This document shows positions 3,745 to 36,001 of a stretch of DNA of 64,000 bases, piece by piece. The position numbers were made by a program, and so were the translations under genes. This stretch comes from Trypanosoma brucei (taxonomy: Eukaryota): NCBI GenBank assembly GCA_000002445.1, contig CH464491.1, forward strand, positions 4,416,001-4,480,000. The letters run 5' to 3'. The notes under the pieces were generated by a model. That model searched no databases. It was not told the origin of the DNA and saw nothing but the letters and a program-made list of their open reading frames with translations. Within the stretch, counting starts at the first letter, position 1. The number at the start of each line of letters is the position of its first letter.

Positions 3745-3810
3745 TAGGTGCATATGTATATATATTATATATATATATATTATATATATATATATATGTG
3801 TATTTATATA
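3745..3810. repeat. (TA)n-rich microsatellite in the spacer.
   Basis: atatatattatatatatatatattatatatatatatatat. Confidence 0.8.
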
Positions 3811-5849: not shown

Positions 5850-8635
5850 GCGAAAAGTGGACACAGAATGTAAATATATAAATAAATAGAACAGGTAAAC
5901 ACCAAATATATAAATAAATAAATATATATATAAACGCTCAAAAAAGGAAACAAAAAAAACAACAGTCAAGCAATAAAAATAATTTTTATAATCGCGATAA
6001 TAACTGATGTTATTTCCGGGACGGGGACGACCAGCTTCTGCAGTCTTTTTGCTATTGTCTTCCTCCTCCTCACTATTATTTGCTGCTGCGGTACTGCCAA
6101 AATCCGTTTCTTTGCTTGTTTGTTTCACTTCACACCAACGCGGCAAGTCCCACCCTCGTTTCTAACGTTCTCCTATTCTTCTTTGTTTATTTATTTGTTT
6201 CTGTTGTTGTTGTTGTTGTTTTCTCGGAATTATCTTCTTTTTTTTCTTTTTTGAAGGGAAGAGCGTTATTTTGCCCCTTCGCCTCCTTCACGTTGATGTT
6301 GTTAAGAAGTCAGAGAAATACGAGAAAACAAATAAAGCAATAAAGAAGAAACAGCCCTCTAATAAGTAAATATATAAATATTTATTAATTTATATAAGCG
6401 CTCGACCGAAACAAACACCTTCCGCACTCACTAGACTTCGAGAGAAAACAAATATGAATGAAAATGAAAAGTAAAAGTAAAAAGTAAAAACAAAGATAAA
6501 AAAGCCGCGAAAAGAAACAAAATATAAAAATTTATACTTCCCCCCTCAAAAAAAAAAAAAAACAACAAAAACAAAAACAAAAACAAAAGCTTTCTAAAAA
6601 CAAGATGATGGAAACAAGAAGGGATCCGATCCGACCTCAGCGGCAGTCGCCCCTCACGTTAAACGCACGATTTCACTTCAGGCAGCAGCTGCCTTTTAAA
6701 CGGAATGATAAGTTTAATAAATGGTAAAAACAAAAAAAAAGAAAAGAAAAAATCAATCAATTAATTAATTAAAAAATAAAAAGCGCAAACAACAAACAAA
6801 CAAATGTTTTTTTTTTTTTTGAAAAGGTCTCAACTCCTTATATATATATATATATACACGTACCTCTCACGATCCTTTTCCTTATTTCTTTTTATTTCTT
6901 TTTATTTTTACTTCCCTTAATCCTGCTGCTTGTCTCACTCTTCCTCAAGGACAAAATCGAACCAATGATATTGCCAATAATGAAACAAATAATAAATATA
7001 TTCAATGAGTAAACAGTAATGGTTGTGTTAAATAATAACAATATGTCGCTTGGTGTTGTTATTTATTATTATTTCCTTCGACACAAAACAAAAAAAAGCA
7101 CAAAAGGGAAGGAAAAAACCTTGTGAAGCTAAAATAATAAAAAAAAAAATCACTCCGTACGCCACAGAAAAGGGGTGATGTAACAGAAAGATGTTAAAGT
7201 GTATAAATAAAATTGATGATTTGACTCAAATAAATGGGGTAAACAAACAAACAAAAAGAGAGAAAGCACACCTTCGAAGCCGCACCGGTGGTTAAGTAAC
7301 TGCACGAAACAATATATTTTACTAAACACAAATATATTTATCTATATTTATATATAAATAAATATAAATATATATTTCTCAAAAGAAAGAAAAAAGAAAA
7401 CTATTTTTCCCTTAAGGGTTGAAACGGAATGAAAGAACAGGAAAAAAGAAAATAATACAAGAAGACTAAAACAAAGGACTAACACTACAGAAGAACAAAA
7501 AACAAAACAATTAACAAGAAATATCTTTTTTTTTTTTTAATTGTTCTCTTTTGTTTTAACTCGTGTGTATGTGCTACCTTATCCTTTGCTAACGTGTGCA
7601 AATGGCTAAATTAATAGTAGGTTATTATATAAACAGAAAAAAAAAAGCGAAGTAAGATGACAAAGTAATGGTAAGGGAAGCAGAAGCAAAGCACATCACA
7701 AAACGACGCGAATACACACACTAATATTTGTATATTTATAGATGATGAAACTAACCAACAGCGGCAACGAGATGACAACCAGAGCGAAGAGGGGTTGATT
7801 TTTTTTTAAAAAAAAGGAAGAAGGAAGAAGCGGAAGCGGAAGCCCAAAACCGGCAGCTATCGTTTCAATTAACTTTTCAGCAGGACCCTTCCTTTTATTT
7901 CTCCCTGCCTTCACTTTCTGCGTCACTTTGACCCTCCCCTCCCCTCCTCTCCTCTCCCAGATGTTGATGAATGCGATGAGAAAAATATGCGTTGGCGTGG
8001 TGTCCAATATTCCGCGTGTGCATAGAAAAATAAACATATGCATGCCTTAATGTTTCAAATATTCCCCCCCCCCCCGGTTACATATCTTCCTGCTTCCCAA
8101 AGGAGGTTATAACAACACTCAAAAGTACGCCAAAATGAGCGTTGCAACACACAACACCGCCGCTCCACACAGCAGCGATCAAGGCCAAAACCAACGCAAA
8201 GAAATATGAAGTCGCAAAGGCAACAACCAACAGAAATAGTAAAAAAAAAAAAGAGAAAACATCAACATCAACATCAACATCCAATGTTGGAGGCAACAAC
8301 AATAACAACACAGACAAGCACTCCATCTATTCATTGTATCGGGAGGACGAGGGGGAGAGAGGCACAAACTAACGTGAAAAACAGTAGAAAGGGGAAATAG
8401 GAAAAGAAAGGGGAAAATCAAGAGAAACCGCCTCAGAAGAAAAAACAAAAAATACAAAAAAGAACTGAAAGAAGACCCAAGTGTGCAGAGAAGGTAGCAA
8501 TGAAAAAAAAAGAGTGAGCAGGAAGTCTCACATGCCCACCGTCTCATTCCCATCCTTCTTGTTTTGGTCCTCCCTCTTCCATTCTTTGATGTATGTATCC
8601 ATATAATTCCCTTTGGCCTTAGAGGCGCTTAGCAC

Positions 8636-12672: not shown

Positions 12673-12675
12673 AGT

Positions 12676-12745
12676 AAAAGAAAAAAAACACGCAACAAAA
12701 AGGAGGAAAGGAAAAAGAGAGTGATATAATCCAACAAATAGGGCA
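12676..12745 (-). promoter_or_regulatory. Polypyrimidine tract (on the coding minus strand) immediately upstream of the 9910..12672 CDS. A candidate trans-splicing / polyadenylation-coupling signal.
   Basis: The plus strand agtaaaagaaaaaaaacacgcaacaaaaaggaggaaaggaaaaagagag equals a C/T run on the minus strand. Comparable purine-rich (plus-strand) tracts lie upstream of most genes, e.g. 5880-5960, 9340-9400, 51600-51660. Confidence 0.35.
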
Positions 12746-13539
12746 TCTATATATAAATATAACTGTAGGTTTGTCAGTCGGCTTACCACCACAAAATAAA
12801 CAAGAAACAGAAGGCGCAATTTTGGACAAGCAAAAGAACGGTGCTACCTTCACATGCGACAAAACACTTGCATGTCCACAATGCACTGAATCGCCACGCA
12901 CAAATATGTGCAACACTAATACACTACCTCACAACACGATAATCCCACTCCAGGGTACAAAACAGATGGATTCTGCCTCCACTGCCATTACCGCTTGTGG
13001 GATCCAACCCTAACGAACTCCCAAAACCTTACAGATTCATCGAAGCAGACACTGTGGAACGCCTAAGGTCTCACAACACCGACCAGCATTAAGTCTCTTT
13101 CCACAGTAACACCACGCCTCAATGAGAGCTACGGGCAGCACACACAACGGCGGTTGAGCATATACAGGGGGGTCAGCAGTACAAATGGGGAAGGGAAGGG
13201 AACGGAACGGAACGGAAACGATTCAACAGAGTGACTGCTTGCGCAGATCACCCAAACCTTAATACAACAAAACCTGCGGCACATACACACACAAAAAAAA
13301 AATCACCCATTATTTACTATCTCTCTTTCCTACCTGTTGCAGCCGCGACCGAAGAATAGTTAACAAAGTGGAATACACGAGAAAGTGAAGGGACACGAAG
13401 TTGACAATTAAAACACAAGACAGAAAGGCCAAGACTGAGAAAACAACGCGTGTCCCTACAACACCGGCGACGACTTCCACACCACACAAGGCACGGCAAG
13501 CAAAGCAAAACCCTCGTTCCATTAGCCCACGCATGCGTT

Positions 13540-22540: not shown

Positions 22541-25500
22541 TCATAGCGCTCCACGGGGTGGGCGTTGTTCCGAGCGGAGTGCCTGTACAAGTTTCCACGA
22601 GGCCAACCCACGCATGTGCTGCTGCATAACCACAACATATTGGTCCGCGATACTGGCACTATCACCTACAGAGCCTACCTTCTGTGTAGTAACTTGGTAA
22701 TAGTAGTGCCCGAGGCTAGCCCACAGATCCGCACCCTCGGGGGAGTCGCTCACAATGGCTGCCACGGCGGCCGCAATCTCCTCATCGTGTGCTTGAATGG
22801 AACCCCAGTAACGCTCCTTGGCGACGAGCCTCTCCTTCACCGACCGTCTAGCCTTGTACGAACGGAACGCACGCTGAACCTTCATTGCAGCTTCATCTAG
22901 CAGACACTCCGCATCACTATCCGTCACACGCTTCTCCTCCACGAGTGCCTTCCTCCTCTCAACCTCACGCCTGGCTAAATACATCCGCATGAAAGGCAGT
23001 ATCTTTTCGCATGCAGCACTGAGTCTGCGCCTCTCCTCCACGAGTGCCTTCCTCCTCTCAACCTCACGCCTGGCTAAATACATCCGCATGAAAGGCAGTA
23101 TCTTTTCGCATGCAGCACTATGTCTGCGTCTCTCCTCCACAAGCGATCTCCGCCTCTCAACCTCACACCTGGCTAAGTGCATCTGCATCGACGGCAATAT
23201 CTTTTCACACGCAGCACTATGTCTGCGTCTCTCCTCCACAAGCGATCTCCGCCTCTCAACCTCACACCTGGCTAAGTGCATCTGCATCAACGGCAATATC
23301 TTTTCACATGCAGCACTATGTCTGCGTCTCTCCTCCACGAGTGCCTTCCGCCTCTCAACTTCACGCCTGGCCAAATGCATCTGCATGAAGGGCAGTATCT
23401 TTTCGCATGCAGCACTGAGTCTGCGTCTCTCTTCCACAAGCGATCTCCGCCTCTGCAACTCCCTCCTAGCCACTGCACACAGGAGGAATGATTCAATAGT
23501 CGAGGATGGCTTTTCCAACACAGAGCACATACCCTCTTGCTGGGCCATGCGAGCTTCAATTGCATCCTTACGAGCCCTACGCTCCTGTTTGGCACGGAAG
23601 ATAAGGGCCAAGCCATTTAGCACTTCCAGTGCTTCTAGTGGTTCTTCGTTCCTTCGGTTGATAGTAGCCGCTGCACGACGGGAGGCTACCTCCTTCTTCG
23701 ACTGTATGATGCGCATGAAACCTTTGAGAACTTCAAGGGCATCACCTACATTCGAAACGCATTCTGGTTGAGGGCGCTCTGCAAACTGCCTCGGTGTTCT
23801 AGGTGGCATGCGGCAACTAACATGCATCATGCTAACCTTCGCACGCAAGAAAGACAAAACGACGTTTACGCGGCGCAGCCGCCGAAACTGGTCCGTGCCG
23901 TCCATAACCAGGCGAGAACATTTCTGAAGCTCCTTGTACTCCAGATCGGGTGACTCCGACCGATCTACCCCGATCCTGCAGTTCACGTAGTCGGCGAAAA
24001 GTTCCCGCAACACACGGTAGTGTAGGCGAGCAAGATATCCTCGTGCTAAGCGAGTGATTGCCAACGCCGCTTGGTCCCTTAAGTTATTGGCCTCTTCATC
24101 TTGTGACCGGTGTTGAGATTGCAAATTTGATGAGGACTCCGCTGATTTCGAGTACGTTCGCCTCGGGGCCACTGGTCGTTGCCGCATGAGTGGTGGACGA
24201 GGCAACAGCGTTAGCACCTCTTCCGCGGTTTCAGCCTCTGCAATCTTCCGCAAACGATATTCGTTTGCCTCCAAGCGACTGTTGCAGCAGTCATTGTAGA
24301 ACTTTATTTCATCCTTCCGCACTTGTCGCCACTTTTCTCTTTCTTCGGCTAGTGCGGCACCCAGGGCAGACTTCTCTTGGTGTCCCACCACCTCACACTC
24401 CCCAACAACATCAAAAGAGCGATCAATTCCTTCATGCCCCAAAGGCTTAACGATTTCTTCAGCCGAATGCCCACCATTATCCGGCCTCGCAAATTCTCCT
24501 ACAGGTTCATTAATATCTAGGTTTAGCTCCGTGGCCGACGGCTCAACACCTTCCAAGTACAATGCTGGCCGCTCCCCGGGCTCTGAATACATAGCATGCT
24601 CTTTTATCAATGACAATCCGACACGCTCCTCCGGAATAATAGGCGTAGCAAGGTGCTGCAACTCAGGTACAACACCTACATCCCCTGGAGAACACGGCAT
24701 CGTCAATTCCAACTTAACGCCTTCTGCGCGCGGGGTGGGTTTTTCTGGCACTTGCTGGCACGAGATGGCAGGTTCCTCTTGGACAGCTCCGCTGGCACTT
24801 CCCAATCCCCCGACCCCTGGCAGCCGCTCGATTTGCTCGTCCCCAGCCAGTGGCAACAGTCGCCCTGCACCGTTAGCTAACGGTTTTGGTAGCCTTGAAT
24901 CCTCAGCGGGTGACGGTAGCAGCTGACAAACGCTCCTGTGAGAGGTCAGAGACCCTTTTACCTTTGGCATCACGTCAAGTGGTGTTGGAGATAACGCGGA
25001 GTGATGCCTGTCATTTGTACACCCGTCGGGTAGTGACCGACGCATAAATGGAACACCTTCCAATCCCCCTCTCACGCTGGAGGGCTCATGAACTCTATGG
25101 TGTCCAGAAACGACCGTTGACGAACGGTTAGCCTCTTCAAGATCGCGCTCCCTCCGCACAAACTCCTGGACCTCCACTGCCATTTGATAAAGTGATCGGC
25201 CCAGTGAAAGCCGGACGAAGTAAGCGCGGCCAATTCTTTGCATAGTGAACGCAAACGCACTAAGACGCGAGTCCAAGAGTTGTCTTCTGCGTTCCTTTTT
25301 CATACGCTTCAGGAGAGATTTCGACCGATAGAGACGGTACGCACGCTGAATCTTCGAAGCTGCCCGACTCTGCAGGCAATGACCACGAATGCGCCTTGCT
25401 GCGTTCTCACGAGCAACATCGAGCAGAGGCCCTGCATTTCTCGCCACAATAATCCGCCTGCCAAAGGCCTGAAGCTTCTTGGCAGCATCGCACCGCCGCT

Positions 25501-28500
25501 GGTGTTCACGAAGTCTCTCTTCACGCGCGGCCCGCAGTTCCCTCATTTTATTGAGCTCCTTTCTAGAAATATACAAACGCCACGCCTTTTGGATTTTCCG
25601 CGCGGCGGATAAGTAGCGAGCTTCCAGATGCCTTCGCCGGAGTCGAGCCGCCCTCAGCCTCGCCTCCCGTGTCTGCTGCTCTGCCCTTCGTCTCCTCCAC
25701 TGGCTCTGTATGACCGTGGCCGCAACTTCTTGCCGTTCCCTCAGGGCCACCTCGTTTTTAACAAGTTGATGCATTTCTCGCAGTTTCTCCACCCTTCGGG
25801 TTGCCATAACCTTGCGCCACCACGTCTGCAGTCGGAAGGCAGCAGAAGATGCGTTATTCTTCAAGAACTGCCTCCGCGCTAGACGCCGTCGGGCCCGCCA
25901 CTGCCGCGCACAGCACTGGATACGCACAGCGGCCCTGTTTATTTCATTGGCAAGAACGTCACGGTTCTTGTAACGTGCGGTAGAACCCGATCTTATACTC
26001 AGGTGCCTCCTAAAAGTCCTTTGAATCTTACGGGCTGCTATTGACCTTCTTACCCCATCCAGTACACGGTCGCGGGCGCTTTTGGACTTTACTGCCTCGA
26101 ACAACTGTCGAGCCTTGAAAGCACGGTAAGCTCTTTGAATGGTAACCGCACAGCCCGACTTGCGCCACAAATCTTCCTCATCGAACAAAAGCATATCTAA
26201 GCGATCAACAACGTACGTAACAAGATTTGCTCCAGGTGGGAGGCCCTGGATCCTTCTTGACGGCGCATCAACGGACAATGGGGGGACGCCCGGTCCCATA
26301 ACACTGGATTTGGAAATGGGCGACCTGCCTTGTTTATCCTTGGCGGCAGAAAATGGAGAGGCCTTTGGTTGAGGAAATTTCCTTACAGGAGACCCCGTAT
26401 CGTTTGAAGGTGCATTGGGTGATAGTCGCCCGACGGCGCTGTGGGCATCAGCGGCATGCTGACCCCGGCGCGCAGCCCCCTCAACCTCCATGGTAACAGT
26501 ATGGAGTTTCTTCTTAGTTGCGTCGTGAGTGGCAGCGGCCTGATGAGTCGGACGCGAGGATGGTGAAGATTCGCGAGCTGAAGAAGATACCCTCCTGCCA
26601 GTCTTGTTACCTGTACCACCGGCTTGCTGATTGTGCAGAAATGGAGCATCAGGATCCGCAGCAACGGATTGCATTTTCCTTCCCGAACTGTCGCGAGCAG
26701 CAGGCGACTGCGCAACCGGTCGGGTGCGCTCTGCATTGGGGGATAACTTCCTGCCGACAGCGCTGCGGCCCCCAACAGCCTGATGGGTCGGACGCGAGGA
26801 TGGTGAAGATTCGCGAGCTGAAGAAGATACCCTCCTGCCAGTCTTGTTACCTGTACCACCGGCTTGCTGATTGTACAGAAATGGAGCATCAGGATCCGCA
26901 GCAACGGATTGCATTTTCCTTCCCGAACTGTCGCGAGCAGCAGGCGACTGCGCAACCGGTCGGGTGCGCTCTGCATTGGGGGATAACTTCCTGCCGACAG
27001 CACTGCGGCCCCCAACAGCCTGCTGAGTCGGACGCGAGGGCGCTGACGGCTCCACAGCAGCAGACTGCGTCCTTCCTTTGGGACTGTTACGTTGACCTGG
27101 GGTCCTCTGATTCGAGCCGGTTGCTCCCACACTTACCGGCGAAGACTGAGCATTCGGTTGTGAGAGGGAGATGTTTGACCTCATCGAACCCTTCATTGGT
27201 GGTCTACATTCAGATCGACTGGCACCACTCTTCGCATTGGACTTTGTGTGCACCGACTCATTGTCGGCAAAACCTGCACCTTTCCCTTGGGACCCGACAT
27301 CACCAGGTCGTGCCGTAGCTTCCCGTTTATATGGCATTCTCGTAGCGGCGACGGGAGACCTTGTAGCCACTGAGAGCGCAACGCCACCTTTATTTGAAAC
27401 CCTCTCATTGTTTTTGGTCAAAGATTTTGACTGTTCACCCACATTCGCCCCACGGTGGTGCTCGGAGGGGCCACCAGACTCGCGTAACGTAGCCCTCGAG
27501 CCCTGCGAAATGGGTGGAAGACGACTAGCATTCGGCGAAGCTCCACCCGATTTCGTTGAATTACCGCCCTTCAAACCGCTGCCATGGGAAGCAGACCCGC
27601 CATTTGTCTGGCTCTGCCATGCAGCAGGCCTCGACAGTGATGTTTTCGAATTTACCCCGGGTGCTGTTGCCGCCGCTGCTGCGGCACTCGGTGGATGACC
27701 GGCGTCAGCACGGGCCGGACGCGAGATGCTACGCTTCGCAACGGTTTCCTTGGCACTCACCGCGAAAGGGTGAGGAAAGATGTCCACACGATGGGTCCTA
27801 GATGCAGCATCCCGACCACTGGGTGAACGTTCCCTGCTGCAAGACCGCGGACTAACAAACAAGGTGTGTCCGCAGGATGAGCGGGGTGAGTTCGTACCCG
27901 TCAAAGCTGAATTACCCGGTCGACATTCGTGAAGCACCATGACAAACCGCTGCATATTACTTTCGATCGTTCTTGTGACCTCACTCCTCCTACTGATCGT
28001 ATTCTGAGCCAAACCCAGCGCCAACCGATACTCTTCATGAGCACGTGGGGGGTCGATCAACTCCAGAGCCATAGCGAGGTTGTGGTGCGCCACTGCTAGC
28101 AAAGAAGGGTCCTCAGGATTGGGCCCAAGACTTTGTATCGCACACACCGCACTATGCGCGGCTTCTTCACATAACCTCAGTTGCACCTGCACAGCACTAA
28201 TGTTTAGGAACGCTACGGGGGATTGTTGCCCCGTGCATTGCATCGATTGCTGCATGTAGTCCAGGGCAGTAGTAAAATGCCCCCGGTGGCGCTCCATGCA
28301 ACCGTGGTTGTTCAGGGTCACGCCGCGCAGTAGTCGGCGGCGCTCATCGTCTTTGCGCAAGGGAAAGGAACCCTCTCCTGTCATCTCCATGGCGTAGCCA
28401 AAGAGAGGTGTAGCAACGTCATATTTTCCTTCCTTGAACAATTTTACACCGAGAACATTGCACTTCATCACAACACGCTCCGCAGCGTCACATGCCTCCT

Positions 28501-28720
28501 TTAGGAGCTCAGGGGATGACGACCCCGTTCCATACTCCTTGCAGCGTATCTGGAGCGCAGTCTCCATCAGTTGCAAGCATTCCATGTCGTTGCCTCCAGC
28601 CTCAAGCGTGGATGCACGGTACTCCATCTTCCGCGCATCCTGCAGAGTCTCCTTCCCAGTAAGACCCGAAGAGGGGTGATGCGGGCCATCTTTGCGTGCA
28701 CTAGACGCTGCGATGGACAT
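22541..28720 (-). CDS. Giant TPR + multi-IQ-motif protein (2059 aa) with three internal tandem repeat arrays (ASPM/IQ-calmodulin-binding-like architecture).
   Basis: N-terminal TPR-like region (first ~250 aa). 80-aa Ser/Pro-rich repeats x2.2. More than 12 IQ motifs (IQRAYRAFKARQ, AARKIQRTFRRH, AAVRIQCCARQWRARRR, AATVIQSQWRRRR, AARKIQKAWRLY, ASKIQRAYRLYRSK...). C-terminal 33-aa repeats x5.4 (ACEKILPFMQMHLARREVERRKALVEERRRHSA). Confidence 0.7.
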   Translation of the reverse strand: MSIAASSARKDGPHHPSSGLTGKETLQDARKMEYRASTLEAGGNDMECLQLMETALQIRCKEYGTGSSSPELLKEACDAAERVVMKCNVLGVKLFKEGKYDVATPLFGYAMEMTGEGSFPLRKDDERRRLLRGVTLNNHGCMERHRGHFTTALDYMQQSMQCTGQQSPVAFLNISAVQVQLRLCEEAAHSAVCAIQSLGPNPEDPSLLAVAHHNLAMALELIDPPRAHEEYRLALGLAQNTISRRSEVTRTIESNMQRFVMVLHECRPGNSALTGTNSPRSSCGHTLFVSPRSCSRERSPSGRDAASRTHRVDIFPHPFAVSAKETVAKRSISRPARADAGHPPSAAAAAATAPGVNSKTSLSRPAAWQSQTNGGSASHGSGLKGGNSTKSGGASPNASRLPPISQGSRATLRESGGPSEHHRGANVGEQSKSLTKNNERVSNKGGVALSVATRSPVAATRMPYKREATARPGDVGSQGKGAGFADNESVHTKSNAKSGASRSECRPPMKGSMRSNISLSQPNAQSSPVSVGATGSNQRTPGQRNSPKGRTQSAAVEPSAPSRPTQQAVGGRSAVGRKLSPNAERTRPVAQSPAARDSSGRKMQSVAADPDAPFLYNQQAGGTGNKTGRRVSSSARESSPSSRPTHQAVGGRSAVGRKLSPNAERTRPVAQSPAARDSSGRKMQSVAADPDAPFLHNQQAGGTGNKTGRRVSSSARESSPSSRPTHQAAATHDATKKKLHTVTMEVEGAARRGQHAADAHSAVGRLSPNAPSNDTGSPVRKFPQPKASPFSAAKDKQGRSPISKSSVMGPGVPPLSVDAPSRRIQGLPPGANLVTYVVDRLDMLLFDEEDLWRKSGCAVTIQRAYRAFKARQLFEAVKSKSARDRVLDGVRRSIAARKIQRTFRRHLSIRSGSTARYKNRDVLANEINRAAVRIQCCARQWRARRRLARRQFLKNNASSAAFRLQTWWRKVMATRRVEKLREMHQLVKNEVALRERQEVAATVIQSQWRRRRAEQQTREARLRAARLRRRHLEARYLSAARKIQKAWRLYISRKELNKMRELRAAREERLREHQRRCDAAKKLQAFGRRIIVARNAGPLLDVARENAARRIRGHCLQSRAASKIQRAYRLYRSKSLLKRMKKERRRQLLDSRLSAFAFTMQRIGRAYFVRLSLGRSLYQMAVEVQEFVRRERDLEEANRSSTVVSGHHRVHEPSSVRGGLEGVPFMRRSLPDGCTNDRHHSALSPTPLDVMPKVKGSLTSHRSVCQLLPSPAEDSRLPKPLANGAGRLLPLAGDEQIERLPGVGGLGSASGAVQEEPAISCQQVPEKPTPRAEGVKLELTMPCSPGDVGVVPELQHLATPIIPEERVGLSLIKEHAMYSEPGERPALYLEGVEPSATELNLDINEPVGEFARPDNGGHSAEEIVKPLGHEGIDRSFDVVGECEVVGHQEKSALGAALAEEREKWRQVRKDEIKFYNDCCNSRLEANEYRLRKIAEAETAEEVLTLLPRPPLMRQRPVAPRRTYSKSAESSSNLQSQHRSQDEEANNLRDQAALAITRLARGYLARLHYRVLRELFADYVNCRIGVDRSESPDLEYKELQKCSRLVMDGTDQFRRLRRVNVVLSFLRAKVSMMHVSCRMPPRTPRQFAERPQPECVSNVGDALEVLKGFMRIIQSKKEVASRRAAATINRRNEEPLEALEVLNGLALIFRAKQERRARKDAIEARMAQQEGMCSVLEKPSSTIESFLLCAVARRELQRRRSLVEERRRLSAACEKILPFMQMHLARREVERRKALVEERRRHSAACEKILPLMQMHLARCEVERRRSLVEERRRHSAACEKILPSMQMHLARCEVERRRSLVEERRRHSAACEKILPFMRMYLARREVERRKALVEERRRLSAACEKILPFMRMYLARREVERRKALVEEKRVTDSDAECLLDEAAMKVQRAFRSYKARRSVKERLVAKERYWGSIQAHDEEIAAAVAAIVSDSPEGADLWASLGHYYYQVTTQKVGSVGDSASIADQYVVVMQQHMRGLASWKLVQALRSEQRPPRGAL
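22930..23465. repeat. 99-bp tandem repeat, ~5.4 copies, in-frame inside the giant TPR/IQ gene.
   Basis: The motif tctcctccacgagtgcc recurs at 22933, 23032, 23131, 23230, 23329 and 23428. It encodes 33-aa repeat units. It also generates spurious plus-strand ORFs 22989..23771 and 23110..23388. Confidence 0.9.
26525..27045. repeat. 240-bp tandem repeat, ~2.2 copies, in-frame inside the giant TPR/IQ gene.
   Basis: cctgatgRgtcggacgcgaggatggtgaagattcgcgagctg sits at 26539 and 26779, with a partial third copy at 27019. It encodes the 80-aa repeat SSPSSRPTHQAVGGRSAVGRKLSPNAERTRPVAQSPAARDSSGRKMQSVAADPDAPFL. Confidence 0.9.
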
Positions 28721-29083
28721 CAGTTCGTGGGATCACTAACCTGCTTGACCTTCAACCACTAGACAGCTCCGTACAAACAGCTACCCCTCCCCGTCCAACC
28801 GCCCAGACGCTTCTACACCCTTCACTCCGTTTATTCTATTACGTCGGGTCCTTCTCGATTGGAGTGACTTCCTCTGGAGACCTAATACCACCGAGTACAA
28901 ACGATGAGATATTCTGCGAAATGCAACACACACACACACACACACGCACACACTTTCCTGAGCGTCACCCACACCTGCAACTATAAATACAAAGGCGGTA
29001 CCTCACAGGATATTCTTTCTCTAGTCCTCCCCTTGTTAAGAAGAAAAGAGCTTTGACACAGAGAAGCGGGAGAGGTGAAAAGG
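27690..29083. repeat. Segmental duplication, copy 1 (5' 1032 bp of the TPR/IQ CDS plus ~365 bp upstream).
   Basis: Near-identical to 30136..31537. The only differences seen are a few substitutions and the (CA)n length. Confidence 0.9.
28923..28952. repeat. (CA)n microsatellite upstream of the TPR/IQ gene. Its duplicate is at 31367-31404 with a longer tract.
   Basis: caacacacacacacacacacgcacacac versus caacacacacacacacacacacacacgcacacac. Confidence 0.85.
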
Positions 29084-30101
29084 GGGAAATGCGCGTCAAC
29101 AACAGATGAACCGTCAATCGAGCTGCGTAGAGAAACATTTGGGTAAAAGAGAAATAGGAAAGCAACCAACTCATGGAGCACCACAAAGATATATACATGT
29201 ACATGTCACAAAGTAGTACATACGCACCCACCGGTCCGCGGGGGGATAGAAAATGAAGCAAAAAGAAAAACATACACTGAGAGGGAAGCCCGACACAATC
29301 GAAAACATTCAGGAGGACTAGCTGAGGTCACTATGAGTATCACCACAGTGTCCCTCTACCCCTTATAGGGAAACAATGCCATATTGCATACTGGCAACAA
29401 AAAAAAAATAACATGTGCAAGTACCTCACCGGGTGTGCAACGTGTGGAGCGCAAGTGCTGACGCGTACTATGGTAAGAAGCACACAAGGCCTGGGCTACG
29501 GATGGAAGTTACCGCACAAGGCTCACTCGCATGCGCCAATGCAAGGGACAAACAGCGGCCAACACACCAACGCTACGTGCACCTCCTGCTCAGAGAGATC
29601 TAAGAAGTTTCCTTCTGTCTTCACTTGCAGCTGCCTCCTACATCCGGACAGAAGATTACGTCCTACGAATGCAGTGTAAGGTGCCAGCCCCGTCCGCAAC
29701 TTTAGCCGGGTACAAATACATTGGTCTAAGTTATGAAATTCAAACATTCGTAATCTGTTCAAGTCCCCCTTCATGAGAAAACACACACGAGCAGTAAACA
29801 TTTAAAAAAAATTATGAAGCTCACACTCCCCGTGTACCGCTCCTTCCGACAAAAAAACTATTATCGGCTCCACTTGTAGCGCACATGTAAGTGAACGTGA
29901 TGGATGTAACGATGAGTACAACAAATTTAGGTCCACTTACCGCAGCTCAAAAAACAGTGGCAGCAATTTATAGACGAAACATGGAGAATATAAGCAAAGG
30001 TGTCGCCATCATTTGAACTCCATAACCGTGCCAAATACAGCATAAATGATAGCTTCGTCAGTTAGTTTCTACCTCGTGGAGCCCTGTGAGGTTTAAACGC
30101 A

Positions 30102-31166
30102 CTAATTCATTGGTGATAACGACGTTAAACGCTTTGGTGGATGGCCGGCGTCAGCACGGGCCGGACGCGAGATGCTACGCTTCGCAACGGTTTCCTTGGC
30201 ACTCACCGCGAAAGGGTGAGGAAAGATGTCCACACGATGGGTCCTAGATGCAGCATCCCGACCACTGGGTAAACGTTCCCTGCTGCAAGACCGCGGACTA
30301 ACAAACAAGGTGTGTCCGCAGGATGAGCGGGGTGAGTTCGTACCCGTCAAAGCTGAATTACCCGGTCGACATTCGTGAAGCACCATGACAAACCGCTGCA
30401 TATTACTTTCGATCGTTCTTGTGACCTCACTCCTCCTACTGATCGTATTCTGAGCCAAACCCAGCGCCAACCGATACTCTTCATGAGCACGTGGGGGGTC
30501 GATCAACTCCAGAGCCATAGCGAGGTTGTGGTGCGCCACTGCTAGCAAAGAAGGGTCCTCAGGATTGGGCCCAAGACTTTGTATCGCACACACCGCACTA
30601 TGCGCGGCTTCTTCACATAACCTCAGTTGCACCTGCACAGCACTAATGTTTAGGAACGCTACGGGGGATTGTTGCCCCGTGCATTGCATCGATTGCTGCA
30701 TGTAGTCCAGGGCAGTACTAAAATGCCCCCGGTGGCGCTCCATGCAACCGTGGTTGTTCAGGGTCACACCGCGCAGTCGTCGGCGGCGCTCATCGTCTTT
30801 GCGCAAGGGAAAGGAACCCTCTCCTGTCATCTCCATGGCGTAGCCAAAGAGAGGTGTAGCAACGTCATACTTTCCTTCCTTGAACAATTTTACACCGAGA
30901 ACATTGCACTTCATCACAACACGCTCCGCAGCGTCACATGCCTCCTTTAGGAGCTCAGGGGATGACGACCCCGTTCCATACTCCTTGCAGCGTATCTGGA
31001 GCGCAGTCTCCATCAGTTGCAAGCATTCCATGTCGTTGCCTCCAGCCTCAAGCGTGGATGCACGGTACTCCATCTTCCGCGCATCCTGCAGAGTCTCCTT
31101 CCCAGTAAGACCCGAAGAGGGGTGATGCGGGCCATCTTTGCGTGCACTAGACGCTGCGATGGACAT
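30102..31166 (-). pseudogene. Truncated paralogue of the TPR/IQ gene. A 354-aa TPR-domain-only ORF ends 10 codons into unique spacer (…HPPKRLTSLSPMN*). It may be an expressed TPR-only protein or a gene fragment.
   Basis: Its first 344 codons are identical to gene 22541..28720 except for 3 aa changes (RRRLL>RRRRL, FTT>FST, RSP>RLP). It has its own duplicated upstream region. Confidence 0.5.
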
Positions 31167-31371
31167 CAGTTCGTGGGATCACTAACCTGCTTGACCTTCA
31201 ACCACTAGACAGCTCCGTACAAACAGCTACCCCTCCCCGTCCAACCGCCCAGACGCTTCTACACCCTTCACTCCGTTTATTCTATTACGTCGGGTCCTTC
31301 TCGATTGGAGTGACTTCCTCTGGGGACCTAATACCACCGAGTACAAACGATGAGATATTCTGCGAAATGCA

Positions 31372-31406
<35 letters not shown>

Positions 31407-31537
31407 CTTTCCTGAGCGTCACCCACACCTGCAACTACAAATACAAAGGCGGTACCTCACAGGATATTCTCTCTCTAGTCCTCCCCTTGTTAAGAAGAAA
31501 AGAGCTTTGACACAGAGAAGCGGGAGAGGTGAAAAGG
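30136..31537. repeat. Segmental duplication, copy 2.
   Basis: Matches 27690..29083 base for base across the CDS and the upstream region, including the (CA)n microsatellite. It diverges at both ends (30136 and 31537). Confidence 0.9.
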
Positions 31538-31666
31538 AGGGGTTAAGCAAACATTCATAAAGTCGCATATTCAATTTAAATGCATCACAACAGAAGCTCC
31601 TTCCTTCCAGCACTTTTCGCTTAAAACTCAAACAGTGAGTATGGTTGCGTTTCGCATCTGCCCTGC

Positions 31667-34342
31667 TCACACCTTTGGCCCCACACCCAACATGCACTCT
31701 TTTCCTTCTCGCTTTTGTGCCACCAAATGTCGTTTGGTGCTGAGAACCCGCACCACCACGTGCCTCCCAGGCAGGACAGTGTCCCTTTTAAGCACAGACA
31801 CTTCTCCCCCCTCCACCAAATATTTGGTATCCACTGCTTCAAACCGCACCAACTTGCCGTCCAACAGGTTCGACCGTAGCAATGCATCAAAAACCTCCCC
31901 CGCACAGGTTCCTCCCTTGAATGGAAAACAGTGGGGAAACGAATTTAGTGGGCGCTCGATCGCATCAACTGGATACACTAAGTGACCGGGGCACAGAGAG
32001 AGAGCAGCGGCCAGGACCGCCTGAACGCCTGTTGTTGTATCAGGGTGCATTGGGCTAAAAAACTCACGCAACTCCACCAGGGCCTTCATCGCCCTTTTCC
32101 TTACGGCGTCCGTGACGTTTGCAGGGGCCCCATCGACTTCTTCGAAGCTGTGATCACCGGGCACGTAGCGAACAGCGCCCACCTGTCGTAAGAAAAGGAG
32201 ATTGCATTCCATTTTGGCGGACATTTGAACAAGGGTTTCGTTCGGGTAGCGCTCCTTCAGGGTACAAATCAACTTGTCCGCCGCGCACCGCATATCTGCC
32301 TTGTTGAGCGCTACAACTATGGGAAACCGCAGATGGACAAATGTAGCCACAAGCAAGTGCAGCTCGGCAGCCCCCCACGCTGGCAGGCGCCGAACCAGCT
32401 CCACTTCAGTAGAGATTCCAAGACACCGCAGCAATGCATCGATGGATGACGGTGGACTGTGGTACCCCGTGAACACCGTTCGTATTTTCAATGGTTTTCG
32501 AACTACGGCAGCCCACTGTGCACGGAGATTGTCATATATCCAGCTGTGCAATTCTCCTCGAACCCACATGATGTCGTCGAAGGTGGATCCTTCCCCTGGT
32601 GCACACGCTGATCCGTCCGCGTAAGTCGCGCCTGCACCATCAACAATGTGTACGAGAACATCTGCATCGCACAAATCGTTGAGGAATCGATTCCCCTTTC
32701 CCTTACCCCGGTAGGCACCTTGCACGAGACCAGCGACATCCTTCACCACTATGGGGTGTCGCCGGTGTGGAGCTCCAAAAGTAGTAACATGACCATACTT
32801 GGCGCCACACTGTCCCGTGCTTGACGGCGAGGGTTGTGACAAACTACACGGACAGAAAATGGGACCGAAACCACAGCCGACATTGGGGTCGATTGTGGTG
32901 AAAGGGAACGCTGCAACCCTTGCAGCCTTGCTCTCGTTATCGGGATTAGTTACCGCATTGTAAAACGTGCTCTTCCCTGCCGACGGTTTGCCAATGAGGC
33001 CGATAGTAAACTCGAGACTCCTACCCCTCCCACCAGCATCGTAACAACCTCCACCTTCGCAATCCCCTCTGCCATACGGCCGAAAAGACGGAGAACCACC
33101 CGCAAGCACTTCTTGCGCACGTCGGTGCGACTCGGCAATGCATGCACTCCTCGCACCTTCACTGTCATCCTCCTCCCACAGCCAATCATTCACTTTTCGT
33201 TCTTTCCATTGCTCTCCCGTCGCAACACCAGCACTGTCGTGCATTTCCCCTCCCTCCGCGAAAACGGACTTCAGGAAATCAAGAGCACCAACTGCTTGTT
33301 CTCCGGTGAACATTATCGCAGGTAGCAACATACCACTTTTGCCCTCAGGTCCCTCTCGCATGAACGCTGTGGTGTCAGAAACTAGCTTTGCCCTCCAGCG
33401 CTCGTAGAAAACATGGTGATTGGAAGGTCCGCCCACGATATCGAACTTTGGAATTTCAGCAGGGTATCCCTTTGACAAAGCCACACACAGTCGTAGCGCT
33501 GCGAGTGGGCTGCCCTCCAGGTCTCCGTCCGCGCAGTTCAACAGCAACGGCAGCGACACGGTGGTCATCTTTCCACGATGAACGCATTCCTCGCCGTAAA
33601 CACATGAAATCATTTCTAACTCCTCCTCGCAAGCCGCGGTAAGAGTACTATCCCCACCATCATTACCAGGGTTTCTCTGCGCAATGCGCTCAAAGAATGA
33701 CTTCAGAGACATGACAATATTCTGTAGCGTTGGGAAGCTGTGTGCGTGCTCATGCCACAAAACGTCAGCGTGAGGTCGACATGCATCCGCGAAAGATGCG
33801 CTCTCCGCTGGGTCCACAACCCCATCTTTCCTGCCCACGATATGCAGGGAAGGTAAAGGTCCCAGGAAACCATCGTTTTCAGCATCGTAACGAGCACTGT
33901 CTTTAAATGCTGAGGCAAGCCCAGGGAAGGTACGACGGGGATCTGGTGTCGCAGCTAATATAAGTCCCTTCAGCGGGGGCCCGTAGCCGTCACCGCCGTG
34001 AAGCTCACGAAGCATTACGTAACGGGCGGCGACAAGGCCACCCTGAGAAAATCCCAAAATGACGTCGTAGCGCATCCCCTCAGCAGCCATGTGGCGCTTC
34101 ACCACCGCGTCCCCGATACTGTAATCATCATCCGCTTCGCTGGGCTCTTCGCCGCACGGCTGCCTGCACCACGAATACGTTGCAATGGAGTTGGAGCCCG
34201 TGTGGTCATGCGGTAACGGATAGGGGGCATCCACAAAATCAAATTCTGCGACAGAAGAAAGCTTAACACACAACCTATTCAGCTGATGCTCAAATATTTC
34301 ACCTGTTTGGCCGAACCCGTGCAGACATAAAACTTTCACCAT
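31667..34342 (-). CDS. Multidomain protein: N-terminal FSH1/OVCA2-type serine hydrolase + RWD-like domain + Obg-like ATPase of the YchF/OLA1 family + C-terminal TGS domain.
   Basis: ORF 31667..34426. The likely start is MVKVLCLHGFGQTGEIF (ATG 34342). Hydrolase motifs LCLHGFGQ and GFSQGG. G1 GLIGKPSAGKSTFYNAVT. G2 FPFTTIDPNVG. G3 VKDVAGLVQGAYRGKGKGNRFLNDLCDADVLVHIVD. NKAD. The C-terminal LVRFEAVDTKYLVEGGEVSVLKRDTVLPGRHVVV is TGS-like. Confidence 0.7.
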   Translation of the reverse strand: MVKVLCLHGFGQTGEIFEHQLNRLCVKLSSVAEFDFVDAPYPLPHDHTGSNSIATYSWCRQPCGEEPSEADDDYSIGDAVVKRHMAAEGMRYDVILGFSQGGLVAARYVMLRELHGGDGYGPPLKGLILAATPDPRRTFPGLASAFKDSARYDAENDGFLGPLPSLHIVGRKDGVVDPAESASFADACRPHADVLWHEHAHSFPTLQNIVMSLKSFFERIAQRNPGNDGGDSTLTAACEEELEMISCVYGEECVHRGKMTTVSLPLLLNCADGDLEGSPLAALRLCVALSKGYPAEIPKFDIVGGPSNHHVFYERWRAKLVSDTTAFMREGPEGKSGMLLPAIMFTGEQAVGALDFLKSVFAEGGEMHDSAGVATGEQWKERKVNDWLWEEDDSEGARSACIAESHRRAQEVLAGGSPSFRPYGRGDCEGGGCYDAGGRGRSLEFTIGLIGKPSAGKSTFYNAVTNPDNESKAARVAAFPFTTIDPNVGCGFGPIFCPCSLSQPSPSSTGQCGAKYGHVTTFGAPHRRHPIVVKDVAGLVQGAYRGKGKGNRFLNDLCDADVLVHIVDGAGATYADGSACAPGEGSTFDDIMWVRGELHSWIYDNLRAQWAAVVRKPLKIRTVFTGYHSPPSSIDALLRCLGISTEVELVRRLPAWGAAELHLLVATFVHLRFPIVVALNKADMRCAADKLICTLKERYPNETLVQMSAKMECNLLFLRQVGAVRYVPGDHSFEEVDGAPANVTDAVRKRAMKALVELREFFSPMHPDTTTGVQAVLAAALSLCPGHLVYPVDAIERPLNSFPHCFPFKGGTCAGEVFDALLRSNLLDGKLVRFEAVDTKYLVEGGEVSVLKRDTVLPGRHVVVRVLSTKRHLVAQKREGKECMLGVGPKV

Positions 34343-36001
34343 TATATTTAAATGTATTTTTTTGTCTTGGACCTGCATGGAAGAAAAACAAAAATATGAA
34401 TACATACACGACGTAAACAAATGCACCCGGAGAGTTATAGTCGTGCTCTTTTTTTTGTTGTTTGTAAGGCAGCCCGTTGCCTCACTTCAACCTATGTATA
34501 GCGACGAAAGGATTTACGTGTCTTTTTCACATATGCTTATTGGCATATCCAACTGTGATGAACTGTCAACGCGGCGAATTCAAACGGCCACCACATGCGG
34601 ATTTTCAGCCGCTATCATGTCAGAACCGCGGAAAAACTTGGAAAATGGAACGAGATCCTTCAATGATTTGGGAATGGAATGGAATGTAAAGAAGCTCCGT
34701 CACCTTCATTTCATCCCTTCCCTCCCTTTTGTTTCCTGGCGATTTCGCTTTTCAATAAGGATTTTCCCGACCTCCGCAGGACCTAAGAAATTTCGGGGCT
34801 AACAGCCAAAACGATAACGGCCTGTAGGAAGTTTATAAAATATATAACCAACAAATGAACAAATGGGCATTGGCGCGACTAACAACTGTCCAACTACGTT
34901 TGAGTTATACGGTTTGTTCCTCCTCTCCGCGTCTACTCGTGGTTGTTAAAACAGTCACCGCACTGCAGCTGCCGCGTAGCATTCACATTACTTCTACCGT
35001 TGTTTCCTTCCTCCATCTCCTCCACTGTTCTACGGAAAATGGCATTGCCATCATCATCATCATCATCTGTTTTAAAGGCAATTCGATACAGCTTAAACAA
35101 TGAAGCATAGATTTGCGTGTACATGTGCCTAGGTAAGCAACTATGAAAGAAAAGTAGGAGAACGATAACACCAAATGACCCTGCCAACGGGCAAAAGAGA
35201 TAACGTAACTGCGGTTTGCCACCTCTAAAGAAACAAATAAACAGAAATATAACGCACAATGCGCGCGCACTATTCGGGAAACTGAGTAAGCGGTTGGCAA
35301 TGCGCATCGTCGTGAAAACGTACATCTATCCATCTATAGATGAGGAGGCATGCTTAGACGAATTTATTGATTTAATTTGGTTTTATATTGGTCCAATTTA
35401 CTCTTTACTTCTCCTCATGAGTTGTTATGACGGCATATACTGGCAAAAGCGTACCGCCTCTACTTCCATGCCACCGAGAGAAAATATCAAACAGACGAAC
35501 TAGGGGGGAGGGTCCGCAACACGATAAAATATAATACATTACACCAAAAAAGAAAACAATGCAGAAAGTAGTTTGGGAAAATATCAGAGAGTTGAAAATA
35601 AAAATACCAGAAACAAAAAACAAAACGCCATCATCGCAGGCACGACCGCGCGGGGCGGAACCCTGGACCCCCTTCCCGCCTTCCTCTCCACGTTATCATT
35701 CTCCGTTACACGCTTTCTCAACGTCATCTCCTCCACCACTCCCGTCCTTTAGCCACCCTATCGCCCCCAGTTCAACCCAAAGAACGCGCAGAGGCCTTCA
35801 GCCACCTTCCCTGATAGGACGAGTAAACATGATGAAGCATCACCAACGAAATGAATTAATGAAACCAAGCTTTATAAGTACAGATATATATGTATGCATG
35901 TATGTATGTGCAGTCGCACACTGTCAACCATATGTTGGCGGCACGAATTGTTTGGCTGAAACTAAGTTGATTACACCACCACCTCACAATGCCAATGGTG
36001 G

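What the first reader, a model, noticed from the sequence alone, without database searches (positions are those of the whole stretch)
22541..28720. Repeat-rich 2059-aa TPR + multi-IQ protein with three distinct in-frame tandem arrays
The architecture is an N-terminal TPR region, then 80-aa Ser/Pro/Arg-rich repeats (240 bp x2.2), then more than 12 IQ calmodulin-binding motifs, then a 33-aa repeat (99 bp x5.4) that itself looks like a degenerate IQ/basic helix (ACEKILPFMQMHLARREVERRKALVEERRRHSA). This resembles ASPM-like or flagellar IQ scaffold proteins. Differences between copies (ARREVERRKALVEERRRLSA versus ARCEVERRRSLVEERRRHSA) show the array has diverged but stays in-frame, so copy number may vary between strains.
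Basis: partly seen in the sequence, partly recalled or inferred. Interest (0 to 1): 0.5.

Follow-up and report, generated by a model that had tools for sequence, protein, structure and literature searches.

The report
Trypanosoma brucei flagellar protein FLAM7
The 2059-residue reading frame is the already named flagellar protein FLAM7 of Trypanosoma brucei, a long scaffold with a TPR docking domain and many calmodulin-type IQ motifs; its internal repeats do change copy number between strains, but that is ordinary for trypanosome proteins.

Summary
The ORF 22541-28720 (-), 2059 aa, is real. It is 100% identical to T. brucei brucei TREU927 XP_829746, which UniRef names Flagellar Member 7 (FLAM7). 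FLAM7 is cited in the literature as a flagellar membrane/matrix protein.

There are two DNA-level in-frame arrays: 240 bp x2.1 and 99 bp x5.3.

- **IQ:** above the Pfam cut-off (45.5 bits against 20.3), plus a C-terminal IQ (24.6 bits).
- **TPR:** below the Pfam cut-off in this protein, but confirmed by a confident AlphaFold model (pLDDT 88.7) that matches kinesin-light-chain, LGN and consensus TPR structures.
- **33-aa unit:** probably a Q-less IQ derivative, but the evidence is weak.
- **Copy number:** it varies between assemblies. The 80-aa repeat has 2 or 3 copies and the 33-aa repeat 3 or 5. No assembly collapses either array.
- **ASPM:** not a member.

FLAM7 belongs to a euglenozoan TPR+IQ family. 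Its T. brucei paralogue Tb927.10.970 is published as a paraflagellar-rod protein needed for cytokinesis.

Observations not in the finding: a truncated 354-aa TPR-only duplicate lies 2.4 kb upstream, and an FPHPF motif is invariant in the orthologues compared.

Verdict: already known, low interest.

The parts
22541..28720 (-). FLAM7 coding sequence, 2059 aa plus stop
   Evidence: ORF list. 100% identity over 100% of the length to T. brucei brucei TREU927 XP_829746/EAN80634, which UniRef names 'Flagellar Member 7'.
27926..28645 (-). N-terminal TPR solenoid, aa 26-265: 11 helices, about 5 helix pairs plus a cap
   Evidence: AlphaFold2 model with pLDDT 88.7 and pTM 0.81. Foldseek matches consensus TPR, KLC1/2 TPR, LGN and OGT at E 5e-5 to 1e-3. 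Pfam TPR_12 and TPR_10 are just below cut-off here and above cut-off in relatives. It is the most conserved region, 45-64% identical to orthologues.
27764..27778 (-). Invariant FPHPF motif (aa 315-319) in the disordered linker, preceded by acidic residues in most orthologues
   Evidence: Present in all 20 sequences examined (the window's own truncated copy, 18 orthologues and a fragment), within otherwise unalignable sequence. Absent from bodonid and diplonemid relatives and from the paralogue.
26186..27910 (-). Basic Ser/Ala/Gly/Arg/Pro-rich linker, aa 271-845, presumed disordered. It also holds an LPP[ILVM] motif at 27497-27526.
   Evidence: Composition is S 16%, A 13%, G 10%, R 10%, P 9%, with net charge +49. 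pLDDT is below 50 for aa 273-354. Orthologues carry unrelated repeats of their own in this region.
26538..27039 (-). 240-bp (80-aa) tandem repeat, 2.1 copies
   Evidence: TRF, 98% matches. There are 2 copies in TREU927 and T. b. equiperdum and 3 in T. b. gambiense DAL972.
25211..26140 (-). Central block of nine IQ motifs, starting at aa 861, 899, 934, 964, 1004, 1043, 1083, 1124 and 1160
   Evidence: Pfam IQ PF00612 scores 45.5 bits against a cut-off of 20.3, with 7 stretches. The pattern scan finds 10 motifs against 0.75 expected. The IQ columns are conserved across orthologues. Composition is 28% K+R with net charge +65.
24281..25120 (-). Acidic, Pro/Gly-rich middle region, aa 1201-1480, poorly conserved
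   Evidence: Composition. T. cruzi, T. theileri and Leishmania carry their own tandem repeats here.
24014..24070 (-). Sub-threshold IQ-like site AALAITRLARGYLARLHYR, aa 1551-1569
   Evidence: Pfam IQ scores 13.8 bits, below the cut-off. It fits IxxxxRGxxxR with T in place of Q. The corresponding site is conserved in T. cruzi and T. theileri.
22933..23459 (-). 99-bp (33-aa) tandem repeat, 5.3 copies, with unit ACEKILPFMQMHLARREVERRKALVEERRRHSA. Probably a Q-less IQ derivative.
   Evidence: TRF, 89% matches. Unit listing and copy-number differences. hhalign to the protein's own IQ motifs gives 53% probability. BLASTP aligns units to the paralogue's IQ motifs at E 7e-5. Pfam IQ scores 18.8 bits for the array and nothing for single units.
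22844..22891 (-). C-terminal canonical IQ motif AAMKVQRAFRSYKARR, aa 1944-1959
   Evidence: Pfam IQ scores 24.6 bits, above the cut-off. Conserved in orthologues.
30102..31166 (-). Truncated paralogue: a 354-aa ORF made of FLAM7 aa 1-343 (TPR plus FPHPF) and 11 unrelated residues
   Evidence: Translation. The ORF is intact in TREU927, DAL972 (annotated CBH18785) and T. b. equiperdum. All amino-acid differences from the full-length copies lie in the tail, aa 266-342.
30136..31541 (-). Upstream copy of a 1.4-kb segmental duplication. Its partner is 27690-29086.
   Evidence: 98.7% identity over 1406 bp. The breakpoints are sharp. The 5' breakpoint falls at the start of a polypyrimidine tract, so the copy carries FLAM7's 5' flank.

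Best explanation
This is the gene for FLAM7 (Flagellar Member 7) of Trypanosoma brucei, one gene in a long single-strand polycistron on chromosome 11.

The protein is a modular flagellar scaffold, in this order:
1. A conserved N-terminal TPR solenoid of the kinesin-light-chain/LGN type. This domain most likely docks a peptide ligand.
2. A basic disordered linker holding an invariant FPHPF motif.
3. A strongly cationic helical region with nine IQ motifs 30-41 aa apart. This most likely carries several acidic EF-hand light chains (calmodulin or calmodulin-like proteins).
4. An acidic disordered region.
5. A second helical region with IQ-like units, ending in a canonical IQ.

The 80-aa array sits in the disordered linker. 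The 33-aa array is a recent amplification of a pre-existing IQ-like unit. Both change copy number by unequal recombination and mainly alter the length of the scaffold.

Shown: the protein's identity, its domain content, the repeat variation and its family relations. Taken from the literature: flagellar location. Inferred: light-chain binding, peptide binding by the TPR, and the spacer role of the repeats.
For: Identity:
- 100% identity and coverage to XP_829746, named 'Flagellar Member 7'.
- All ORFs of 250 aa or more lie on the minus strand, apart from repeat-generated antisense ORFs. The neighbours are unrelated (COG5, LRR, FSH1/GTPase, ABC), as expected for a trypanosomatid polycistron.

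Flagellar location:
- PMC4559404 lists FLAM7 among flagellar membrane/matrix proteins, citing Subota 2014, and finds LinJ.32.3350 in Leishmania flagella.
- The T. cruzi orthologue is listed among flagellar proteins in an exoproteome.

Domains:
- IQ scores 45.5 bits against a cut-off of 20.3, and the C-terminal IQ scores 24.6 bits.
- The TPR fold model has pLDDT 88.7 and matches KLC1, LGN and consensus TPR structures.
- The IQ block has net charge +65. By inference, a helix this cationic needs acidic partners.

Family:
- Profile hits combine TPR and IQ in Bodo saltans, Apiculatamorpha and a diplonemid.
- The paralogue Tb927.10.970 is published as TPR plus a string of IQ domains, located in the paraflagellar rod, and essential.

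Repeats:
- The 80-aa repeat has 2 or 3 copies and the 33-aa repeat 3 or 5 copies, with different unit orders in TREU927 and DAL972.
- T. cruzi and T. theileri have only two diverged IQ-like units where T. brucei has the array. Every orthologue carries different repeats of its own.
Against: - No binding of calmodulin or any light chain to FLAM7 has been shown here or in any paper I could read.
- None of the motifs matches the strict IQxxxRGxxxR pattern.
- The 30-41 aa spacing differs from that of myosin lever arms.
- FLAM7 matches no chain in the PDB by sequence, including trypanosome axoneme cryo-EM entries, so there is no structural placement.
- The primary FLAM7 paper (Subota et al. 2014) was not in the library. 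The localisation therefore rests on a secondary citation.
- The ligand of the TPR domain is unknown.
- The differences in repeat number could be partly assembly error in the short-read or draft assemblies.
Confidence: 0.6

Rival explanations
1. The arginine-rich IQ regions are not light-chain sites. They act as cationic single helices or coiled coils that bind the acidic tubulin tails, paraflagellar-rod lattice proteins or membrane phospholipids directly. The IQ matches would then be a by-product of the A/R/Q-rich helical composition.
For: - No motif matches the strict IQxxxRGxxxR pattern.
- Several central motifs score below the cut-off individually: 14.2 bits, 19.2 bits and none.
- The block is 28% K+R with net charge +65.
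- The spacing is unlike that of myosin IQ motifs.
Against: - The I/L-Q and R positions are nearly invariant across orthologues from Trypanosoma to bodonid-like sequences, while the intervening residues vary. That points to a motif rather than composition.
- The pattern occurs 10 times against 0.75 expected in shuffles of the same composition.
- Pfam IQ is well above the cut-off.
Confidence: 0.2
2. It is an ASPM-type protein: a microtubule minus-end or spindle scaffold with a long IQ array.
Against: - Pfam finds no calponin-homology domain, ASH domain or ASPM C-terminal region.
- The N-terminal domain is TPR.
- There are about 10 IQ motifs at 30-41 aa spacing.
- All homologues found are euglenozoan TPR+IQ proteins.
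- The reported location is the flagellum.
Confidence: 0.02
3. The tandem arrays and their differences in copy number are assembly artefacts rather than biological variation.
For: Repeats of 99 and 240 bp are prone to collapse or expansion in draft assemblies. The T. equiperdum OVI protein is a fragment.
Against: - Four independent assemblies all keep at least 2 copies of the 80-aa repeat and at least 3 of the 33-aa repeat.
- The units are distinguishable by substitutions, and the unit orders differ in ways that need separate gain and loss events (A-B-B'-C-C in TREU927 against A-B'-C-C-C in DAL972).
- The two T. equiperdum assemblies agree on 3 copies.
- The reading frame is kept throughout.
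Confidence: 0.1

Closest known systems
FLAM7 (Flagellar Member 7) of Trypanosoma brucei; orthologues T. cruzi Q4D113 and L. infantum LinJ.32.3350
   Same: Identical sequence. This is the protein itself. The orthologues share the TPR, FPHPF, the nine-IQ block, the IQ-like C-terminal region and the terminal IQ motifs.
   Different: Nothing differs for TREU927. Other T. brucei subspecies differ in repeat copy number. Other species carry unrelated repeats of their own in the disordered regions.
Tb927.10.970 (XP_822355), the T. brucei TPR + IQ-string protein. It localises to the paraflagellar rod in TrypTag, and knockdown causes endoreduplication (PMC9464253).
   Same: It has the same N-terminal TPR domain (28% identity over 258 aa, E 4e-17), followed by a Ser/Pro-rich linker with an LPPI motif and then IQ motifs at about 30-40 aa spacing.
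   Different: - 21 or more IQ motifs in one continuous block.
- No FPHPF motif.
- No acidic middle region.
- No 33-aa or 80-aa arrays.
- Functional data exist for it but not for FLAM7.
Kinesin light chain TPR domain (KLC1/KLC2) and LGN/GPSM2 TPR
   Same: They are among the best structural matches to aa 1-278 (TM about 0.5-0.58). The Pfam TPR_10/TPR_12 type is the KLC-like class. KLC also has a short LFP-acidic linker motif that folds back on its TPR (own knowledge). That resembles the acidic-[IL]FPHPF motif here.
   Different: Sequence identity is only 15-19%. There is no heptad-repeat region for binding a kinesin heavy chain. The TPR is followed by IQ arrays. Docking of FPHPF onto the TPR was not confidently predicted.
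ASPM / abnormal spindle
   Same: A large protein with a series of IQ motifs.
   Different: FLAM7 has no CH or ASH domains. The number and spacing of IQ motifs differ, as do the N-terminal domain, the cellular location and the taxonomic range.
Myosin lever-arm IQ arrays (for example myosin V)
   Same: Consecutive IQ motifs on a basic helix, expected to bind calmodulin-family light chains.
   Different: FLAM7 has no motor domain. Its spacing is 30-41 aa rather than 23-25 aa, leaving charged gaps of roughly 10-15 residues between sites.

Membership tests
FLAM7 orthologue group (trypanosomatid Flagellar Member 7) | Sequence identity to the named T. brucei protein | tested here: met
   100% identity and 100% coverage to XP_829746/EAN80634/UniRef100_Q380Z7.
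FLAM7 orthologue group (trypanosomatid Flagellar Member 7) | Conserved synteny with orthologues | tested here: met
   The order FSH1/GTPase gene, FLAM7, LRR gene, COG5 is found in T. brucei and T. cruzi. T. cruzi has an extra P5CS-like gene upstream.
FLAM7 orthologue group (trypanosomatid Flagellar Member 7) | Flagellar localisation | not testable with these tools
   Known only from the literature: PMC4559404 citing Subota et al. 2014. The primary paper is not held.
IQ calmodulin-binding motif proteins (Pfam PF00612) | HMM score above the curated cut-off | tested here: met
   45.5 bits against 20.3, with 7 stretches. The C-terminal motif alone scores 24.6 bits.
IQ calmodulin-binding motif proteins (Pfam PF00612) | Actual binding of calmodulin or a related light chain | not testable with these tools
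   No experimental data were found. No PDB relative exists.
IQ motif, applied to the 33-aa repeat unit | The unit matches the IQ model | tested here: inconclusive
   The array scores 18.8 bits, below 20.3. Single units give no hit. hhalign gives 53% probability, in register. BLASTP to the paralogue's IQ motifs gives E 7e-5. The Q position is L in the units.
TPR repeat proteins | Sequence HMM above the curated cut-off | tested here: not met
   TPR_12 scores 27.9 against 30.1 and TPR_10 scores 23.8 against 27.5 for aa 1-270. Relatives do pass; for example Bodo saltans TPR_12 scores 37.6.
TPR repeat proteins | Helix-turn-helix solenoid fold matching solved TPR domains | tested here: met
   The AF2 model has pLDDT 88.7, pTM 0.81 and 11 helices. 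All of the first 30 Foldseek PDB hits are TPR proteins or contain TPR chains, at probability 1.00.
ASPM family | N-terminal ASH domain and calponin-homology domains | tested here: not met
   Pfam at E up to 10 reports only IQ, IQ_SCN5A_C and TPR_10.
ASPM family | Long array of closely spaced IQ motifs (tens of copies, about 23-27 aa apart; own knowledge) | tested here: not met
   There are 9 central motifs at spacings of 38, 35, 30, 40, 39, 40, 41 and 36 aa.

The most novel reading that the evidence does not exclude
The T. brucei-specific 354-aa ORF at 30102-31166 is an expressed, free-standing TPR+FPHPF module that carries FLAM7's own 5' flank. It would regulate FLAM7 by competing for the ligand of its TPR domain. 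The invariant acidic-[IL]FPHPF motif would be an intramolecular, autoinhibitory ligand of that TPR, analogous to the LFP-acidic motif of kinesin light chains.
Probability: 0.1. Interest if true: 0.5.

Novelty: already known. Interest (0 to 1): 0.2.

Why it matters
It matters little beyond annotation. The gene is a named, proteomically validated flagellar protein of a well-studied parasite, and in-frame repeat polymorphism is common in trypanosomatid proteins. Two other genes in this same window also carry coding tandem arrays.

The useful by-products are:
- a clearer domain map of FLAM7;
- its link to the essential paraflagellar-rod protein Tb927.10.970 as a euglenozoan TPR+IQ family;
- a conserved FPHPF motif and a truncated TPR-only duplicate, both of which could guide experiments on how calmodulin-type proteins are organised in the trypanosome flagellum.

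Tried and rejected
Calls that found nothing or could not run:
- The primary FLAM7 paper (Subota et al. 2014) could not be read by DOI, PMC id or PubMed id.
- 'FLAM7' or 'Flagellar Member 7' does not occur in the supplements of the APEX2 flagellar proteomics paper or the RIT-seq cell-cycle paper.
- I could not recover the Tb927.11 gene number, so TrypTag and RNAi data for FLAM7 itself were not retrieved.
- Searches with guessed Leishmania gene identifiers found nothing new.
- A sequence search of the PDB gave no hit.
- The afdb50 fold library was unavailable.
- The exact 354-aa product of the truncated copy is not on record as a called gene.

Ideas tested and not supported:
- A first alignment for the second AF2 job scattered the short query's tail. 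I rebuilt it from trimmed sequences.
- The AF2 model of the 354-aa ORF did not confidently dock FPHPF on the TPR. Only residues 312-317 reach pLDDT 50.
- I tested whether the spacer between the duplicated segments is a relic of the P5CS-like gene that sits at this position in T. cruzi. No similarity was found.

Rejected interpretations:
- ASPM membership.
- The antisense ORFs at 22989-23771, 26383-27132, 26518-27318 and 27171-27698 as genes. They overlap the FLAM7 coding sequence, and three of them lie over its repeat arrays.

Full report
**1. The observation**

The window holds an uninterrupted ATG-initiated ORF on the minus strand at 22541-28720 that encodes 2059 aa. Tandem Repeats Finder reports exactly two arrays inside it. 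One is 240 bp x2.1 at 26538-27039 with 98% matches. The other is 99 bp x5.3 at 22933-23459 with 89% matches (confirmed).

It is a diverged protein-level series of IQ motifs. The antisense ORFs of 175-266 aa overlapping the gene are most simply by-products of its repeat arrays.

**2. What it is**

The protein is 100% identical over its full length to T. brucei brucei TREU927 XP_829746/EAN80634. UniRef names this protein Flagellar Member 7, or FLAM7. It lies on a 5.26-Mb record, which is chromosome 11.

The surrounding window fits a trypanosomatid polycistron. All long ORFs except repeat-generated antisense ones are on the minus strand, and the neighbours are functionally unrelated: COG5, an LRR protein, an FSH1-RWD-GTPase fusion, an ABC transporter and a SP-RING protein.

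[quoted passage not shown] It cites Subota et al. 2014 and identifies the L. infantum orthologue LinJ.32.3350 in purified flagella. The T. cruzi orthologue Q4D113 is listed among flagellar proteins in an exoproteome. I could not read the primary FLAM7 paper.

**3. Domain tests**

*IQ motifs.* Pfam PF00612 scores 45.5 bits against a cut-off of 20.3, with seven stretches in the central block. The C-terminal motif alone scores 24.6 bits. A relaxed pattern finds nine central motifs (aa 861-1160, spaced 30-41 aa) plus one at aa 1948. Composition-matched shuffles give 0.75 on average and 5 at most. No motif matches the strict IQxxxRGxxxR pattern. A site at aa 1551-1569 is sub-threshold at 13.8 bits. 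"More than 12 IQ motifs" therefore holds only if weak and Q-less sites are counted.

*TPR.* In this protein TPR_12 (27.9 against 30.1) and TPR_10 (23.8 against 27.5) fall just short. An AlphaFold2 model of aa 1-278, built on 19 sequences, is confident, with pLDDT 88.7 and pTM 0.81. It shows 11 helices. Its best matches among solved structures are consensus TPR, KLC1/KLC2 TPR, LGN and OGT. This domain is the most conserved part of the protein, at 45-64% identity to orthologues.

*ASPM.* No CH, ASH or other ASPM-type domain is present.

**4. The 33-aa unit**

Single units give no Pfam IQ hit, and the whole array reaches 18.8 bits, below the cut-off. A profile of 14 units from five Trypanosoma sequences aligns in register with a profile of FLAM7's own ten IQ motifs. 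In that alignment ILPFM[Q/R] sits over IQxxxR, with 53% probability and P 1.3e-4. BLASTP also aligns the units to canonical IQ motifs of the paralogue (AACEKILPFMRMYLARRE against AAC-RIQRGFRAFLRWRE, E 7e-5).

T. cruzi, T. theileri and T. melophagium have only two diverged units of this kind at the same position. An unnamed Trypanosoma-like sequence (P0002) has a separately expanded array with two alternating unit types.

The unit is therefore most likely an IQ-derived helix that has lost the Q and was amplified recently. Whether it still binds a light chain is unknown.

**5. Copy number**

| Assembly | 80-aa repeat | 33-aa repeat (full units) | Protein length |
|---|---|---|---|
| T. b. brucei TREU927 | 2 | 5 | 2059 aa |
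| T. b. gambiense DAL972 | 3 | 5 | 2139 aa |
| T. b. equiperdum | 2 | 3 | 1993 aa |
| T. equiperdum OVI (fragment) | not covered | 3 | 1250 aa (partial) |

TREU927 and DAL972 both have five 33-aa units but in different orders, which implies separate gains and losses. DNA alignment of the T. b. equiperdum locus confirms the contraction. No assembly collapses either array to one copy.

Units differ by both synonymous and non-synonymous changes.

Each orthologue carries different, unrelated repeats in its disordered regions. Examples are a 14-aa and a 45-aa repeat in T. cruzi and about 33-aa repeats in L. major. Two other genes in this window also have coding tandem arrays. Repeat turnover of this kind is ordinary here.

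**6. Family**

A profile of the TPR-to-FPHPF region finds 42 proteins at E of 1e-30 or better among 1.84 billion representatives. Named ones include Phytomonas, Bodo saltans ("IQ calmodulin-binding protein"), the early-branching kinetoplastid Apiculatamorpha spiralis and the diplonemid Namystynia karyoxenos. All seven distant members that I tested combine an N-terminal TPR with IQ motifs.

T. brucei has a paralogue, XP_822355 (1756 aa). I identify it as Tb927.10.970 for two reasons. Residue 706 is T, and three published primers translate into its sequence.

PMC9464253 describes Tb927.10.970 as a protein with a TPR, a phosphorylation cluster and a string of IQ domains. It reports a paraflagellar-rod location from TrypTag, and knockdown causes endoreduplication and a severe growth defect. 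FLAM7 and this paralogue share 28% identity over the TPR (E 4e-17) and a similar IQ spacing of about 30-40 aa.

**7. Mechanism**

The best-supported reading is a flagellar scaffold with four kinds of module.
- The TPR docks a peptide ligand, by analogy with KLC and LGN.
- The two basic helical regions carry several acidic EF-hand light chains. The IQ block has net charge +65.
- The disordered regions act as spacers of variable length.
- The repeats modulate that length.

Identity, domains, repeat variation and family are shown. Flagellar location comes from the literature. Light-chain binding, the TPR ligand and the spacer role are inferred.

FLAM7 matches no PDB chain by sequence, including trypanosome axoneme cryo-EM entries. 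That is consistent with, but does not prove, a non-axonemal position.

**8. Seen beyond the finding**

The first 343 codons of FLAM7, plus 366 nt of 5' flank beginning at a polypyrimidine tract, are duplicated 2.45 kb upstream at 98.7% identity. The duplicate gives an intact 354-aa TPR-only ORF. That ORF is conserved in three T. brucei subspecies assemblies, and all amino-acid differences from the full-length copies lie in the disordered tail.

T. cruzi has a P5CS-like gene at this position instead, and no relic of it remains in T. brucei.

An FPHPF motif is invariant in all 20 sequences examined (the window's own truncated copy, 18 orthologues and a fragment). AlphaFold did not confidently dock it on the TPR.

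**9. Verdict**

The ASPM analogy fails. The object is an already named and localised protein, and the repeat polymorphism is ordinary. Interest is low.

Noticed in passing
window 30102-31166 (-); duplicated segments 27690-29086 and 30136-31541: There is a truncated 354-aa copy of FLAM7's N-terminus (TPR plus FPHPF, then 11 unrelated residues) with FLAM7's own 5' flank, 98.7% identical at the DNA level. It is intact in TREU927, DAL972 and T. b. equiperdum. All amino-acid differences from the full-length copies lie in the disordered tail. T. cruzi has a P5CS-like gene at this position instead.
   Followed up: partly
window 27764-27778 (-), FLAM7 aa 315-319: An FPHPF motif, preceded by acidic residues in most orthologues, is invariant in all 20 sequences examined (the window's own truncated copy, 18 orthologues and a fragment), inside otherwise unalignable disordered sequence. 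It is absent from bodonid and diplonemid relatives and from the paralogue. The AF2 model gives only a weak hint of order there (residues 312-317 reach pLDDT 50).
   Followed up: partly
window 27497-27526 (-), FLAM7 aa 399-408: A second short conserved motif, LPP[ILVM], is seen by eye in the linker. It reads SRLPPISQGS here, LPPV/LPPM/LPPL in orthologues and GPLPPISKAAS in the paralogue Tb927.10.970.
   Followed up: no
window 11295-11430 (inside ORF 9910-12819, -) and 57098-57358 (inside ORF 56923-59937, -): Two other genes in the window carry tandem arrays whose periods are multiples of three: 48 bp x2.8, and 36 bp x6.2 (also reported as 108 bp x2.1). Coding tandem repeats are therefore frequent in this stretch of the genome.
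   Followed up: no
window 1-8000: G+C drops to 0.32-0.42 in the first 8 kb, against about 0.5 elsewhere, and there are few long ORFs. This may be a long intergenic or UTR-rich stretch or a different sequence class.
   Followed up: no
window 31667-34426 (-): The upstream neighbour encodes an unusual fusion of an FSH1 serine hydrolase, an RWD domain and an Obg-like GTPase (MMR_HSR1 plus YGR210-like G4). It is conserved in T. cruzi.
   Followed up: no
FLAM7 aa 861-1160 (window 25211-26140) and paralogue P0185: IQ motifs in both T. brucei TPR+IQ proteins are spaced about 30-41 aa apart, often alternating near 30 and 40, rather than the roughly 23-25 aa of myosin lever arms. This suggests a different packing of light chains or bare charged helix between sites.
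   Followed up: partly
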